From sequence record OL960575.1: 59,778 bases of DNA, one strand, 5' to 3'. The position numbers and the translations under genes are program-made. The notes below the pieces were generated by a model. That model did not search any database and had not been told where the DNA came from. It saw nothing but the letters and a program-made list of their open reading frames with translations. Origin of the DNA: Escherichia phage vB_EcoS_SA80RD. Below are positions 55,785-57,987 of this stretch, in pieces (position 1 is the stretch's first letter; every line of letters starts with the position of its first letter).

Positions 55785-56177
55785 ATGCTATTAGTCGTCA
55801 CCGGAGGTCGAGATTTTAAGCATGTGGAGTATATTTACGCTCAATTGGATAAGCTGCATATGCAAAGAAGCATAACCACACTTCGCCACGGTGACGCTGA
55901 CGGTGTTGACCGGATTTGCGCACATTGGGCAGAGCGCAACGGTATTAAGACAGAAGCGTTCCCTGCCCCGTGGGACAATCTTTCCTTACCAAATACCAAG
56001 ATACGGTATAACGCCAAGGGTGCTTATAATGCACAAGCTGGCGCTTACCGCAATCAATTAATGCTGGATACTGATCCTAAACCAGATCACGCTATTGTGT
56101 TTCCTGGCGGAGCTGGTACTATGGATATGTACAGACGGATTAAAGCATCCGTTATTCCTTACACTTTAGCGGAGTAA
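55785..56177 (+). CDS. SLOG-family (DUF2493/YspA-like) Rossmann-type protein
   Basis: N-terminal VVTGGRDF and RHGDADGVDR motifs as recalled for DUF2493. Confidence 0.4.
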   Translation: MLLVVTGGRDFKHVEYIYAQLDKLHMQRSITTLRHGDADGVDRICAHWAERNGIKTEAFPAPWDNLSLPNTKIRYNAKGAYNAQAGAYRNQLMLDTDPKPDHAIVFPGGAGTMDMYRRIKASVIPYTLAE

Positions 56178-56180
56178 ATA

Positions 56181-56651
56181 ATGGCTGACGTTAAAACTAT
56201 TGTTGATGCAATGGACGAATCCAAAGACTGCCAACTGAAGAAGTCGTTTGAAGTAAAACAGGTTACAGAGACTCAGTTGGTCTGTAATTTTGCGCGTTAT
56301 TGTGGACTGGGGCGCGGGAAAGACTGGAACGGGCTTATTGTTATGCCCACATCACAAATCCTCGTTTACGTTCGCAATATTCTTGAGGATTTATTATATC
56401 TTCAGATTGATATTGGTGACGTAGAAATTAACATGACCGCGAGCTCTACCATTGTGGTTAAATGGCAGTCGGGCGAGACACTGCGTTTGGAAGCGTGCCA
56501 TTGTGCTAAGAGCCTACACCACCTGCGCGGTTGTCATTACCAGTTCGTTGGGTTTGTACATCCGCAAGGGTTAAGCGAGCGTACGGCGCTGGTAGCGCGT
56601 TTGCTGCTGCGTCCTTATAATAACGAGCCGGAAGTCATATACGAGGCATAA
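56181..56651 (+). CDS. hypothetical protein
   Basis: 156-aa ORF. Confidence 0.45.
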   Translation: MADVKTIVDAMDESKDCQLKKSFEVKQVTETQLVCNFARYCGLGRGKDWNGLIVMPTSQILVYVRNILEDLLYLQIDIGDVEINMTASSTIVVKWQSGETLRLEACHCAKSLHHLRGCHYQFVGFVHPQGLSERTALVARLLLRPYNNEPEVIYEA

Positions 56652-56652
56652 G

Positions 56653-56859
56653 ATGGAAACTCCATTAGCTAAACAAATGATAGAGCGTGCGGATCGGGAC
56701 GGTTTACCGGAAGACCATGCTATGCGTCGAACTGCCCAAGTATTTGACGAAATTAGCGTTAAATATGCGATGGGTAAGAGCACGCCTAAAGGTTTATTGG
56801 GCGCCTGGGCTCGCGCTCGGCGCTGCTGGTGCAACTACACCGGAGAACCACTTGTATGA
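56653..56859 (+). CDS. hypothetical protein
   Basis: 68 aa; stop overlaps next start. Confidence 0.4.
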   Translation: METPLAKQMIERADRDGLPEDHAMRRTAQVFDEISVKYAMGKSTPKGLLGAWARARRCWCNYTGEPLV

Positions 56860-57278
56860 TTAAACACGTTAAACAGCCAACGTTGAATACATGCGTTTCT
56901 GCGTGTTTGGCAATGATCCTTAATAAACCTGTTGAGAAGGTCATTGAGGAATTTCATAGTCGTTATTATAACAACTGGGAAATCACTATCAGCGAATATT
57001 TGACTAAGAACGGCGTCCAGCATCATTGTTCAGAAGGTGGTGGGCGTGAAACTTTGCATATGGGAGGTTTGTTCCTGTGCACGGTGCCAAGTCTTAATAT
57101 TCCGGGCGCATTGCACCAGATTGTGATTGATATGACAGATCACAAGTTTATTGTGCATGATCCAATTAAAGGATGGGAAGGTAAGAAGTTCTATGTTGGT
57201 CCGGATCAAGATCCTGAAGAGACTGGAGCTTTTATCATTCACACTTGGGTCAAAGACGTTGAAATCCTGCCTTATTAA
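56856..57278 (+). CDS. papain-fold cysteine peptidase (C39-like, putative)
   Basis: ATG 56856; N-terminal QPTLNTCVSACLAMIL resembles the Gln/Cys motif of C39-like peptidases, with candidate His downstream. Confidence 0.4.
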   Translation: MIKHVKQPTLNTCVSACLAMILNKPVEKVIEEFHSRYYNNWEITISEYLTKNGVQHHCSEGGGRETLHMGGLFLCTVPSLNIPGALHQIVIDMTDHKFIVHDPIKGWEGKKFYVGPDQDPEETGAFIIHTWVKDVEILPY

Positions 57279-57310
57279 TTTTCTTGCTATCACATAACCC
57301 TTCATTGTAT

Positions 57311-57340
57311 TGTGTACCCATCGAATAAGAGGGGTACACA
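57311..57340 (+). promoter_or_regulatory. RBS-occluding stem-loop upstream of small membrane protein gene
   Basis: TGTGTACCC (57311-57319) pairs with GGGTACACA (57332-57340); the 3' arm covers part of the AAGAGGGG RBS and runs to the ATG. Confidence 0.45.
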
Positions 57341-57526
57341 ATGACCAAACTATACGCCGGATTGTTTTTATTTGCGACGTTAATGTTCGCTGGGCTTTAT
57401 ACCTATACAGTAGTCGAACAACCTTCCACGGTTATCCGAATCTTTGCAAGTACAGGGCTTTGCATCTGTCTTATTCTATTTGTTTTATGTATTGTTATTA
57501 TCCAAGACCAAAGGAAAGTTAAATGA
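57341..57526 (+). CDS. small two-helix membrane protein
   Basis: 61 aa; two hydrophobic segments, basic C-terminus. Confidence 0.45.
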   Translation: MTKLYAGLFLFATLMFAGLYTYTVVEQPSTVIRIFASTGLCICLILFVLCIVIIQDQRKVK

Positions 57527-57987
57527 CCACAATTGCGTTCGATGGAAAAGTATTAGCTGCGGACCGTGGAGTTATGCGCGGGGAAGCTGTGACTGCTTAT
57601 AAGAAAGTTCATAGCGTAAATGGACATCGTGGACGGTTTTTACTGGGCTTGTGCGGCCTTACAGCATTTACCGATCAGGTGTTGCGTTATTTTAATAGCG
57701 CGGAACCTGTTAAGTTCCCTGATATTAAACTTTACAGTAAAGATGATGATTACGGGCAAACTTGCGGTCTTGCTGTCACTCCGGAAGGTACTTGCCATTT
57801 TATTTATAATGATGGTACTTTGAGCGAGCCCATGCTGGATGGATGGGGGTCTGAGGGTAGCGGTTGTGTGTTTGCTGCTGGCGCGTTAGCTGCTGGTGCA
57901 AGTGCGAGCGAAGCTATTGAGTTGGCAATTAAACACACCACATGCGCATTCCTGGGAGTTGATACAATATCATTTGAGGGTTTTTAA
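57523..57987 (+). CDS. HslV/proteasome-beta-like Ntn hydrolase (putative threonine peptidase)
   Basis: Begins MTTIAF (Thr directly after Met, as in HslV); later GSEGSGCVFAAGALAAGASASEAIELA aligns by eye with HslV GSGGPYAQAAARALL region. Confidence 0.45.
   Translation: MTTIAFDGKVLAADRGVMRGEAVTAYKKVHSVNGHRGRFLLGLCGLTAFTDQVLRYFNSAEPVKFPDIKLYSKDDDYGQTCGLAVTPEGTCHFIYNDGTLSEPMLDGWGSEGSGCVFAAGALAAGASASEAIELAIKHTTCAFLGVDTISFEGF

What the first reader, a model, noticed from the sequence alone, without database searches (positions are those of the whole stretch)
55785..57987. Late-early module encoding an HslV-like Ntn hydrolase, a C39-like cysteine peptidase and a SLOG-domain protein
The ORF at 57523-57987 begins MTTIAF, placing Thr directly after the initiator Met as in HslV and proteasome beta subunits, and has a GSxGSG...AAGALAAG segment in the position of the HslV GSGG motif. 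Two genes upstream, 56856-57278 carries a Q...C...AMIL motif typical of papain-fold C39-like peptidases. 55785-56177 has the VVTGGRDF / HGDADGVD signature I associate with DUF2493 SLOG proteins. A phage-encoded HslV homolog could pair with host HslU to redirect proteolysis, and the neighbouring peptidase and nucleotide-binding-like protein suggest a host-takeover or anti-defence module rather than structural or replication functions. Between the two peptidase genes lies a 61-aa membrane protein whose RBS is sequestered in a hairpin.
Basis: partly seen in the sequence, partly recalled or inferred. Interest (0 to 1): 0.7.

Follow-up and report, generated by a model that had tools for sequence, protein, structure and literature searches.

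The report
Phage mini-HslV, C39 peptidase, SLOG genes

Summary
The window is a complete Seuratvirus genome. It matches Escherichia phage vB_EcoS_SA80RD and is about 98% identical to Dru_SM1 and CAjan over the module.

- **SLOG:** passes Pfam's YAcAr threshold (E 2.7e-18).
- **154-aa protein:** has a proteasome-beta/HslV fold (pLDDT 94.5; Foldseek to HslV E 1e-6). It keeps Thr1, Asp17, Lys33, the oxyanion Gly and Ser124.
- **Hairpin:** the hairpin over the 61-aa gene's start codon is real and conserved.

- The HslV-like protein belongs to a very large phage family of about 145-aa proteins (8,138 clusters). The family lacks helix H2, which supplies part of the HslU-tail pocket, so HslU pairing is doubtful.
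- The C39-like and HslV-like genes stay together in Seuratvirus, Nonagvirus and Craquatrovirus. Those phages share a backbone.
- In 78 other viral loci the HslV-like gene stands alone, most often beside terminase or neck genes.
- SLOG is optional.
- Expression timing and substrates are unknown.

Public records already say "peptidase HslV family". Interest is moderate.

The parts
55785..56177 (+). 130-aa stand-alone SLOG-superfamily protein of the YAcAr family (formerly DUF2493)
   Evidence: Pfam PF10686, E 2.7e-18, above the gathering score. phrog_289 'GTP-binding domain', E 1e-22. tblastn finds it in 675 phage records. A homologue lies directly upstream of the C39-like gene in Providencia phage PSTCR7 (gp57, YAcAr E 5.7e-14). 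It is absent from JenK1, STP-SP5 and yong3.
56181..56651 (+). 156-aa protein of unknown function (phrog_25149)
   Evidence: Only PHROG matches it (E 4e-111). No Pfam, PDB, NCBIfam or PADLOC match. Present in STP-SP5 and weakly in yong3; absent from PSTCR7 and JenK1.
56653..56859 (+). 68-aa variable small gene whose stop overlaps the C39-like start (ATGA)
   Evidence: phrog_27185. Missing from CAjan and Seurat, which accounts for the ~200-bp gap in the megablast hits. Present in Dru_SM1 and STP-SP5.
56856..57278 (+). 140-aa stand-alone C39-type (papain-fold) cysteine peptidase; candidate catalytic residues Gln7, Cys13, His87, Asp102
57308..57343 (+). RNA hairpin enclosing the start codon and part of the Shine-Dalgarno of the 61-aa gene
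   Evidence: Centroid structure -20.1 kcal/mol, z -2.42. Same stem in CAjan, Dru_SM1 and STP-SP5. A 15-bp version in yong3 still holds the AUG. No U-tract follows, so it is not an intrinsic terminator.
57341..57526 (+). 61-aa protein with two hydrophobic segments; its stop overlaps the HslV-like start (ATGA)
   Evidence: phrog_22841. Hydropathy windows 7-25 and 34-54. Found only in Seuratvirus; in JenK1 an unrelated 117-aa gene takes its place, and in PSTCR7 nothing does.
57523..57987 (+). 154-aa shortened HslV / proteasome-beta-type N-terminal-threonine hydrolase ('mini-HslV'); Thr2, Asp14, Lys28, Gly45, Ser113 correspond to HslV Thr1, Asp17, Lys33, Gly48, Ser124
   Evidence: phrog_1040, E 5e-32. 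Profile against PDB: HslV E 2e-8. hhalign to E. coli HslV E 2.5e-7. AlphaFold2 pLDDT 94.5. Foldseek to HslV E 1.3e-6, TM 0.64-0.67. Family size 8,138 clusters at E<=1e-10. Catalytic residues near-invariant in 150 representatives. Helix H2 absent.
57988..58248 (+). 86-aa protein of unknown function, starting one base after the HslV-like stop
   Evidence: phrog_23528. Conserved in STP-SP5 and yong3. Its 'VIGG' is not conserved, so it is not a likely double-glycine substrate.
58334..59769 (+). Lysis cassette (endolysin 58334-58771, holin 58808-59152, Rz-like spanin 59133-59606, overlapping lipoprotein ORF 59467-59769). It bounds the array; terminase follows at window 12-2106.
   Evidence: phrog_873 endolysin, phrog_785 holin, phrog_89 Rz-like spanin, phrog_5334 terS, phrog_2 terL. 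The circular record of yong3 shows lysis genes running straight into terS.

Best explanation
**Setting.** The region is the distal end of a rightward array of small accessory genes in a Seuratvirus. The array runs into the lysis cassette and then, across the genome ends, into the terminase genes.

**What it encodes.** Three stand-alone enzymes, each from a large, phage-borne family with no experimental characterisation:
1. A YAcAr-family SLOG protein. It probably binds or processes a nucleotide-derived ligand. This is inferred from the superfamily only.
2. A C39-type cysteine peptidase with the full Gln/Cys/His/Asp set. It has no ABC transporter and no phage-encoded double-glycine-leader substrate. 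It most likely cuts a host or phage protein at a specific site in the cytoplasm (inferred).
3. A 'mini-HslV'. This is an N-terminal-threonine hydrolase whose Thr is exposed by removal of the initiator Met, with the catalytic Asp, Lys, Gly and Ser in place.

**How the mini-HslV most likely works.** It lacks helix H2 and most of the pocket that receives the HslU tail. It therefore most likely acts as a peptidase that does not depend on HslU (inferred).

**Linkage.** The two peptidase genes have been inherited side by side through Seuratvirus, Nonagvirus and Craquatrovirus, while the small genes around them turned over. SLOG is an optional third member. Elsewhere each gene occurs on its own.

**Expression.** Translation of the 61-aa membrane protein, and through the ATGA overlap probably that of the mini-HslV, is throttled by a hairpin that buries the start codon (structure shown, effect inferred).

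**Shown:** identity, folds, conserved catalytic residues, synteny. **Inferred:** activity, HslU independence, substrates, timing.
For: - **Identity of the phage and existing annotation:**
- **SLOG:** Pfam YAcAr E 2.7e-18.
- **Mini-HslV homology and fold:** PHROG 1040, profile against PDB, hhalign residue mapping, AlphaFold2 pLDDT 94.5, Foldseek to HslV and 20S beta subunits.
- **Mini-HslV family:** 8,138 clusters at E<=1e-10, and the match starts at residue 1 of the protein in 146 of the 150 best (4 offset or partial).
- **Conservation in those 150:**
  - position 2: Thr 142, Ser 8
  - Asp14: 149
  - Lys28: 149
  - Gly45: 150
  - Gly112 and Gly114: 150 each
  - Ser113: 128
- **H2 absent:** DSSP shows one helix (47-58) followed by coil 59-79. 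There is an 18-residue deletion against E. coli HslV. The segment is only 13-21 residues across the family.
- **HslU pocket residues:** 54, 57, 79, 80 and 114, from PMC6429459.
- **No double-glycine leader ORF in the window**.
- **Synteny:** PSTCR7 gp57-gp58-gp59, then lysis, then terS and terL. JenK1 gp78-gp79-gp80, then lysis. STP-SP5 and yong3 likewise.
- **Solo occurrence:**
- **Hairpin:**
Against: - No activity, oligomeric state or substrate was or could be tested here.
- HslU independence rests on a monomer model and an alignment. A ring of mini-HslV subunits could still offer a different docking surface.
- BPH, a solved proteasome homologue with an intact active site, was inert on standard substrates (PMC5777263). 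An intact catalytic set therefore does not guarantee ordinary protease activity.
- The C39 assignment fails Pfam's threshold, and the family profile finds no C39 chain in the PDB by sequence. The positions of Cys, His and Asp in the model were not measured.
- Co-retention of the two peptidase genes may reflect shared ancestry (terL 67% identical). It may also reflect the fact that enzymes stay recognisable longer than small ORFans.
- Immediate neighbours of the wider family are often terminase, adaptor or neck genes. That would also fit a role in late functions rather than host manipulation.
Confidence: 0.6

Rival explanations
1. The phage HslV homologue docks onto host HslU and redirects ATP-dependent proteolysis. 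Together with the C39 peptidase and the SLOG protein it forms a host-takeover or anti-defence module.
For: - True homology to HslV, with an MTT start and all catalytic residues.
- E. coli HslV needs HslU for protein substrates (PMC6429459), and the phage encodes no unfoldase of its own near the gene.
- The trio is contiguous in PSTCR7.
- C39-like homologues in other phages sit in arrays of small early-type genes.
Against: - Helix H2 is missing.
- The pocket residues align to Asp51 and Leu54 in place of Phe54 and Phe57, and residues 79-80 have no counterpart.
- BPH, a descendant of HslV, lost the HslU interface and became independent of it (PMC5777263), so there is precedent for HslU independence.
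- There are no PADLOC matches and no known anti-defence homology.
- The trio is not conserved outside one phage lineage.
Confidence: 0.12
2. Three unrelated accessory genes. They lie together only because this genome arm collects such genes and because the phages compared share ancestry. There is no functional coupling.
For: - Each gene occurs alone in many unrelated phages: 59, 195 and 675 phage records respectively.
- Of 78 non-Seuratvirus loci with an HslV-like gene, none has a C39-like gene within 6 kb and one has a SLOG gene.
- SLOG is lost in JenK1, STP-SP5 and yong3.
- Different genes are inserted between the two peptidases in different genera.
- terL is 67% identical between the window and PSTCR7.
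Against: - In the arm upstream of the lysis genes, only these enzymes and the holin are recognisably shared with PSTCR7; all other small genes differ.
- The C39-like/HslV-like pair is kept in all four groups examined, at 27-39% identity.
- In PSTCR7 the pair has overlapping stop and start codons.
Confidence: 0.35
3. The C39-like peptidase inactivates host type II topoisomerases by cutting the Gly-Gly of the GyrB/ParE ATP lid, as the C39 toxins StbD-CT and Cpe1 do.
For: - StbD-CT cleaves the HAGGK motif of GyrB and ParE (bioRxiv 10.64898/2026.05.07.723447).
- In Kuttervirus Maynard the homologue lies between the phage's own topoisomerase II subunit genes, with overlapping junctions.
- That phage's own ATP lid reads YAGSNFND and has no Gly-Gly.
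Against: - The profile search finds only stand-alone proteins of about 120-250 aa (most 135-185) and no polymorphic toxins.
- No topoisomerase lies nearby in five other phage lineages.
- Seuratvirus has no topoisomerase II of its own in this region and presumably needs host gyrase (inference).
Confidence: 0.1
4. The peptidases serve lysis or virion maturation rather than host manipulation. For example, the papain-fold enzyme could act as a cell-wall endopeptidase, or the mini-HslV could process late proteins.
For: - The genes abut the lysis cassette in Seuratvirus, Nonagvirus and Craquatrovirus.
- A small membrane protein lies between them.
- Immediate neighbours of the mini-HslV family are most often terS, terL, head-tail adaptor Ad1, head closure Hc1 and Neck1.
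Against: - The phage already has an endolysin, holin and spanins.
- The Gln-x5-Cys ... His-x14-Asp pattern is, from my own recollection of Streptococcus ComA's Gln11/Cys17/His96/Asp112, that of C39 leader peptidases. This was not checked against any structure here.
- C39-like homologues elsewhere sit among DNA-metabolism or small early-type genes.
- Other family members lie in lambdoid nin-like regions next to NinB.
Confidence: 0.08

Closest known systems
HslV (ClpQ), the bacterial proteasome-beta homologue (MEROPS T1B; PDB 1e94, 1g3i, 6kui)
   Same: Homologous (profile E 2e-8; hhalign 93%). Same Ntn alpha-beta-beta-alpha core (Foldseek E 1e-6, TM about 0.65). No propeptide: Met-Thr-Thr start. 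Thr1, Asp17, Lys33, Gly48 and the Gly-Ser124-Gly motif all align.
   Different: About 22 residues shorter. Helix H2, including the Arg86/Arg89/Lys90 cluster and pocket residues 79-80, is deleted. Phe54 and Phe57 are replaced by Asp51 and Leu54. No hslU partner gene. Encoded by phages. Below Pfam PF00227's threshold. Oligomeric state unknown.
BPH (PDB 5ovs, 5ovu) and Anbu, proteasome homologues that work without a dedicated ATPase
   Same: Stand-alone proteasome-type subunits with a complete active site and no ATPase partner. BPH is the fifth-best sequence match in the PDB (E 3.7e-7). Some family members use Ser1 (8 of 150), as BPH outside the Betaproteobacteria does (PMC5777263).
   Different: BPH is about 200 aa, keeps both helix layers and forms heptameric double rings. 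The phage family is about 145 aa and scores closer to HslV. The 2017 survey of proteasome homologues does not mention phages.
C39 peptidase domains of bacteriocin/quorum-peptide ABC transporters (PCAT1, ComA, LahT150)
   Different: A stand-alone cytoplasmic protein with no transporter. No double-glycine-leader peptide is encoded in the phage. Not detected by sequence against PDB C39 chains. Below Pfam's threshold.
C39 peptidase toxins StbD-CT and Cpe1, which cleave GyrB and ParE
   Different: Those are C-terminal domains of delivered polymorphic toxins with immunity proteins. The phage protein is free-standing with no immunity-like partner identified, and the profile search did not link them by sequence.
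YAcAr / DUF2493 SLOG proteins (Pfam PF10686)
   Same: Full-length match above the curated threshold. Widespread in phages. Predicted by Iyer et al. 2021 to use NAD+ or bind ADP-ribose-type ligands (PMC7824862).
   Different: Nothing specific. It is an ordinary member. No solved relative was found by sequence, and its ligand is unknown.

Membership tests
HslV / proteasome beta (Ntn threonine peptidases, MEROPS T1) | Ntn-hydrolase alpha-beta-beta-alpha sandwich fold | tested here: met
   AlphaFold2 pLDDT 94.5, pTM 0.89. Among the 50 Foldseek PDB matches listed, all are HslV, BPH or 20S beta subunits; 157 matches reach E<=1e-3.
HslV / proteasome beta (Ntn threonine peptidases, MEROPS T1) | Nucleophilic Thr (or Ser) at the mature N-terminus | tested here: met
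   The ORF starts MTT with no upstream in-frame start. M1 and T2 are invariant in 17 homologues. Thr 142 and Ser 8 of 150 representatives. Met removal itself was not tested.
HslV / proteasome beta (Ntn threonine peptidases, MEROPS T1) | Asp/Glu17, Lys33, oxyanion Gly and Ser124/129 around the nucleophile | tested here: met
   hhalign maps D14, K28, G45 and S113 onto HslV D17, K33, G48 and S124. Conservation is 149, 149, 150 and 128 of 150. The roles of these residues come from PMC5777263.
HslV / proteasome beta (Ntn threonine peptidases, MEROPS T1) | Passes the curated Pfam PF00227 score | tested here: not met
   15.4 bits against a cut-off of 22.4, E 0.015, residues 7-58 only.
HslV proper (partner of HslU) | Helices H1 and H2 forming the apical surface and the pocket for the HslU C-terminal tail (residues 54, 57, 79, 80, 114) | tested here: not met
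   Only one helix (47-58) before the second sheet. 11+7 residue deletions at H2. F54 aligns to D51 and F57 to L54. Pocket residues from PMC6429459.
HslV proper (partner of HslU) | An hslU (AAA+) gene in the same operon or genome | tested here: not met
   No AAA+ gene in the array. No protease-associated ATPase appears among the 25 most frequent PHROG families listed per side for the 57 upstream and 61 downstream neighbours across 63 family clusters. Use of host HslU in trans was not testable.
HslV proper (partner of HslU) | Dodecamer of two stacked hexameric rings | not testable with these tools
Peptidase C39 (papain-fold, clan CA) | Papain-like fold closest to C39 domains | tested here: met
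Peptidase C39 (papain-fold, clan CA) | Oxyanion Gln, catalytic Cys, His and Asp | tested here: inconclusive
   Q7, C13, H87 and D102 are invariant in 12 homologues. The Pfam C39 partial hit covers the Gln/Cys segment in register (residues 3-24 to profile 3-24). Side-chain geometry in the model, and residue-by-residue equivalence to a solved C39, were not measured.
Peptidase C39 (papain-fold, clan CA) | Passes the curated Pfam PF03412 score | tested here: not met
   13.9 bits against 22, E 0.048. The family profile finds no C39 chain in the PDB. One homologue of 120 carries a precomputed PF03412 hit.
Peptidase C39 (papain-fold, clan CA) | Fusion to an ABC exporter and a double-glycine-leader substrate nearby | tested here: not met
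   Stand-alone 140-aa ORF. The 120 homologues listed are about 120-250 aa, most 135-185. No window ORF fits the leader consensus.
YAcAr SLOG (Pfam PF10686, DUF2493) | Full-length match above the curated score | tested here: met
   66 bits against 28.2, profile positions 3-64 of 66.
YAcAr SLOG (Pfam PF10686, DUF2493) | Binding or turnover of a nucleotide-derived ligand | not testable with these tools
   This is a prediction from the literature only (PMC7824862).

The most novel reading that the evidence does not exclude
The ~145-aa 'mini-HslV' proteins form a distinct class of proteasome homologue that is carried mainly by phages and has not been characterised. There are at least 8,000 clusters at 50% identity. 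All keep the Thr1/Asp/Lys/Gly/Ser active site but lack helix H2 and the HslU pocket. They work without HslU. In the Queuovirinae/Craquatrovirus lineage they act together with a stand-alone C39 peptidase on host proteins, with host type II topoisomerases as one concrete candidate substrate for the C39 partner.
Probability: 0.2. Interest if true: 0.65.

Novelty: new variant of a known kind. Interest (0 to 1): 0.4.

Why it matters
Proteasome-type proteases are normally discussed as cellular machines: 20S, HslV, Anbu and BPH. I found no paper in the searchable library that describes or tests the phage-borne short form, yet it is very common (8,138 clusters) and its active site is strictly conserved.

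If it is an active peptidase that does not need HslU, two things follow:
- It would be the smallest known working proteasome homologue.
- It would be a new class of phage tool for reshaping the host proteome.

The stand-alone C39 peptidase is a second uncharacterised phage protease, and recent work on C39 toxins suggests a testable substrate for it.

As a genome annotation, however, this is ordinary. Identical proteins in GenBank relatives already carry the labels 'peptidase HslV family', 'putative protease', 'cysteine protease' and 'GTP-binding domain' or 'DUF2493'.

Tried and rejected
- **Single-sequence search of the 154-aa protein against the PDB** gave nothing meaningful. Only the family profile worked.
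- **Profile of the C39-like family against the PDB** gave no C39 chain. The assignment rests on fold and conserved residues.
- **A phage-encoded double-glycine-leader substrate:** no window ORF fits the consensus. The 'VIGG' of the 86-aa protein is not conserved in yong3. The 68-aa gene next to the peptidase is missing from CAjan and Seurat.
- **A conserved three-gene module across phages in general** is rejected by the 80-locus survey.
- **Known defence or anti-defence homology:** no PADLOC matches, and NCBIfam gave only noise.
- **The 156-aa and SLOG proteins against the PDB:** no hits.
- **A sigma-70-like promoter at 55075-55103 as evidence of timing:**
  - It matches 11 of 12 positions.
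  - It is not found in the related loci fetched.
  - Promoter-like sites are not enriched over shuffles (26 against 20.5 +/- 4.2).
  - I gave it no weight.
- **The topoisomerase context as a general rule for the C39-like gene:** it holds in Kuttervirus only.
- **Literature searches for a characterised phage HslV homologue** found only annotation-level mentions.

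
Full report
**What the window is**

The 140-aa protein is 100% identical to a protein of Escherichia phage vB_EcoS_SA80RD, whose contig is 59,778 bp, the same length as the window. The 2.6-kb region is 98.3% identical to phage Dru_SM1 (full length) and about 98% to CAjan over 91%, both Queuovirinae, genus Seuratvirus.

The window starts with terS, terL, portal, scaffold and major head genes. 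It ends with endolysin, holin and spanin genes. The circular record of Hafnia phage yong3 shows the lysis genes running straight into terS. The finding therefore lies at the end of a rightward array of small genes, just upstream of lysis and packaging.

**Checking the observation**

All ORFs, coordinates and quoted motifs are correct. The genes are tightly packed:
- ATGA overlaps at 56856 and 57523.
- One base between the HslV-like gene and the following 86-aa gene.
- A single 62-nt gap before the 61-aa gene.

That gap holds a hairpin at 57308-57343. Its energy is -20 kcal/mol, with z -2.4. The 3' arm contains the AUG and part of the Shine-Dalgarno sequence. The stem is identical in CAjan, Dru_SM1 and STP-SP5. 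In yong3 a 2-nt insertion before the AUG is accommodated by a longer stem that still buries the AUG. The stem shows conservation rather than covariation. The 61-aa protein has two hydrophobic segments.

**The HslV-like protein (57523-57987)**

Homology and fold:
- PHROG 1040 'peptidase HslV family' matches at E 5e-32. Pfam Proteasome is below threshold.
- A 17-sequence family alignment has invariant M1, T2, D14, G45, G112 and G114, and near-invariant K28.
- The family profile finds HslV chains in the PDB at E 2e-8 to 1e-5. BPH scores 4e-7, and archaeal and eukaryotic beta subunits score 2e-6 to 1e-3.
- hhalign to E. coli HslV gives 93% probability and E 2.5e-7. The alignment maps T2, D14, K28, G45 and S113 onto Thr1, Asp17, Lys33, Gly48 and Ser124.
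- The AlphaFold2 model is confident (pLDDT 94.5). Its PDB matches are HslV, BPH and 20S beta subunits, with best E 1.3e-6 and TM 0.64-0.67.

First, this is a shortened variant.
- The model has one helix (47-58) where HslV has H1 and H2.
- hhalign shows 11+7 deleted residues at H2.
- The segment is only 13-21 residues across the family.
- The HslU tail binds a pocket lined by residues 54, 57, 79, 80 and 114 (PMC6429459).
- H2 also carries the Arg86/Arg89/Lys90 cluster (PMC5777263).
- Here Phe54 and Phe57 align to Asp51 and Leu54, and residues 79-80 have no counterpart.

Pairing with host HslU is therefore unlikely, although it could not be tested directly.

Second, the family is very large.
- An exhaustive profile search found 11,611 representative proteins at E<=1e-3 and 8,138 at E<=1e-10.
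- The best 150 have a median length of 149 aa (most 140-170, up to 252), and 146 of them match from their first residue.
- True HslV would score near E 1e-4 in a library of that size, so HslV proteins are not among the 8,138 (my scaling).
- In those 150, position 2 is Thr in 142 and Ser in 8. Asp14 is kept in 149, Lys28 in 149, the three Gly in 150 each, and Ser113 in 128.

That pattern indicates selection for catalysis.

I found no paper that characterises a phage HslV homologue. One jumbo-phage paper notes HslV genes without HslU. The 2017 survey of proteasome homologues does not mention phages.

**The C39-like protein (56856-57278)**

- Pfam C39 matches only residues 3-24, at E 0.048.
- The family profile finds no C39 chain in the PDB.
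- Q7, C13, H87 and D102 are invariant down to 33% identity.
- The model is confident (pLDDT 93.1).
- Other papain-fold enzymes follow: PeiR at 9.1, StbD-CT at 8.2, staphopain at 8.0, and Josephin and clippases at 6-7.5.

The protein is a stand-alone domain. The 120 homologues listed are about 120-250 aa, most 135-185. tblastn finds it in 195 phage records. No double-glycine-leader peptide is encoded in the window.

**The SLOG protein (55785-56177)**

This is a plain member of Pfam YAcAr/DUF2493 (E 2.7e-18). It is present in 675 phage records. Iyer et al. predict that this family uses NAD+-derived ligands.

**Is it a module?**

Survey of unrelated phages:
- I collected 80 viral loci that encode relatives of the HslV-like protein, forming 63 clusters at 80% identity.
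- Only the Seuratvirus loci contain a C39-like gene within 6 kb.
- Only one other locus (L040) has a SLOG gene. It lies 1.7 kb upstream in a lambdoid nin-like region.
- Immediate neighbours are most often terS, terL, head-tail adaptor Ad1, head closure Hc1 and Neck1. NinB, methyltransferases and HNH endonucleases also occur.
- Distant C39-like genes sit alone in four settings:
  - between the two topoisomerase II subunit genes in Kuttervirus Maynard;
  - next to RusA in a Vibrio phage;
  - among small hypothetical genes in Pseudomonas, Vequintavirinae and Schizotequatrovirus phages;
  - among methyltransferases in a metagenomic phage.

Cultured relatives tell the other side:
- Nonagvirus JenK1 has C39-like gp78, an unrelated gp79, HslV-like gp80, then lysis genes.
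- Craquatrovirus PSTCR7 has SLOG gp57, C39-like gp58 and HslV-like gp59 in a row, the latter two junctions with short overlaps, followed by lysis genes, terS and terL.
- Identities to the window proteins are 27-39%.
- None of the other small genes of the arm is recognisably shared.
- PSTCR7 terL is 67% identical to the window's, and terS and holin are about 38% identical.

These are relatives that inherited the arrangement. My reading is that the two peptidase genes have been kept together for a long time in one lineage. That is compatible with cooperation but does not prove it. SLOG is optional: it is absent from JenK1, STP-SP5 and yong3.

**Timing and role**

Nothing here fixes the time of expression. 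The position resembles the lambdoid order of nin region, then lysis, then terminase. The family's frequent placement inside packaging and neck gene blocks would fit late expression instead. A strong sigma-70-like site at 55075-55103 is not conserved in the relatives fetched, and such sites are not enriched over shuffles. No protein matches a PADLOC model.

**A lead worth recording**

A 2026 preprint shows that the C39 toxin StbD-CT, and Cpe1, cleave the Gly-Gly of the HAGGK ATP lid of GyrB and ParE.
- The Kuttervirus homologue lies between that phage's own topoisomerase II genes.
- That phage's lid reads YAGSNFND, with no Gly-Gly.

The evidence is thin. The context holds in one lineage only, and sequence searches do not link the families. 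The idea is nonetheless directly testable.

**Verdict**

The fold and family interpretation is correct. The HslU-hijack idea is probably wrong. The module idea is half right, and function is unknown. Public records of near-identical phages already carry 'peptidase HslV family', 'putative protease', 'ATP-dependent protease HslV', 'cysteine protease' and 'GTP-binding domain' labels. As annotation this is not new. What is of moderate interest is that the HslV-like protein represents a huge, catalytically intact family that lacks H2 and that nobody appears to have studied.

Noticed in passing
L089 (Salmonella phage Maynard NC_022768.1) 5980-6429, with neighbours 4065-5978 and 6426-7751: The Kuttervirus homologue of the C39-like peptidase lies between the phage's two topoisomerase II subunit genes, with overlapping junctions. 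A 2026 preprint shows C39 toxins cleaving the Gly-Gly of the GyrB/ParE ATP lid. The phage's own lid reads YAGSNFND.
   Followed up: partly
window 56653-56859: The 68-aa gene just upstream of the C39-like gene is an indel. It is present here, in Dru_SM1 and in STP-SP5, and absent from CAjan, Seurat and most other Seuratvirus records (the 91%-coverage, two-piece hits).
   Followed up: partly
window 54121-54621: An HNH homing-type endonuclease (phrog_99, E 7e-64) is inserted in the small-gene array. It is present in Dru_SM1 and not annotated at the corresponding place in CAjan.
   Followed up: no
window 55075-55133: A near-consensus sigma-70-like site (TTGACT-17-TATAAT, 11 of 12) is followed within 15 nt by a GC-rich hairpin (GGGCTC-TACG-GAGCCC), just upstream of the 98-aa gene at 55154. 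The strict pattern was not found in the related loci fetched.
   Followed up: partly
window 58772-58798: A terminator-like hairpin (GGGGCGTTAGCCCC followed by TTTTATTT) lies between the endolysin stop and the holin start. It would separate the endolysin and the accessory array from the holin and spanins.
   Followed up: no
window 59467-59769: An ORF with a lipobox-like N-terminus (LMICAGCS) overlaps the 3' end of the Rz-like gene in another frame. It looks like an Rz1-type outer-membrane spanin and runs almost to the end of the window.
   Followed up: no
L032 3498-5855: In one metagenomic phage the terminase large subunit next to the mini-HslV gene is about 785 aa and looks as if it carries an intein-like insertion. 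The middle part shows homing-endonuclease/Hint-like sequence between terminase segments.
   Followed up: no
L085 (Providencia phage PSTCR7) 3031-3546: The SLOG protein of PSTCR7 has an extra N-terminal ~60 residues with two CxxC pairs (zinc-ribbon-like) that the window's SLOG protein lacks.
   Followed up: no
P0183, P0147, P0104 (mini-HslV representatives): A minority of mini-HslV family members carry C-terminal extensions of 40-100 residues. Several extensions are rich in CxxC motifs and others in Trp/Pro, which hints at added binding modules.
   Followed up: no
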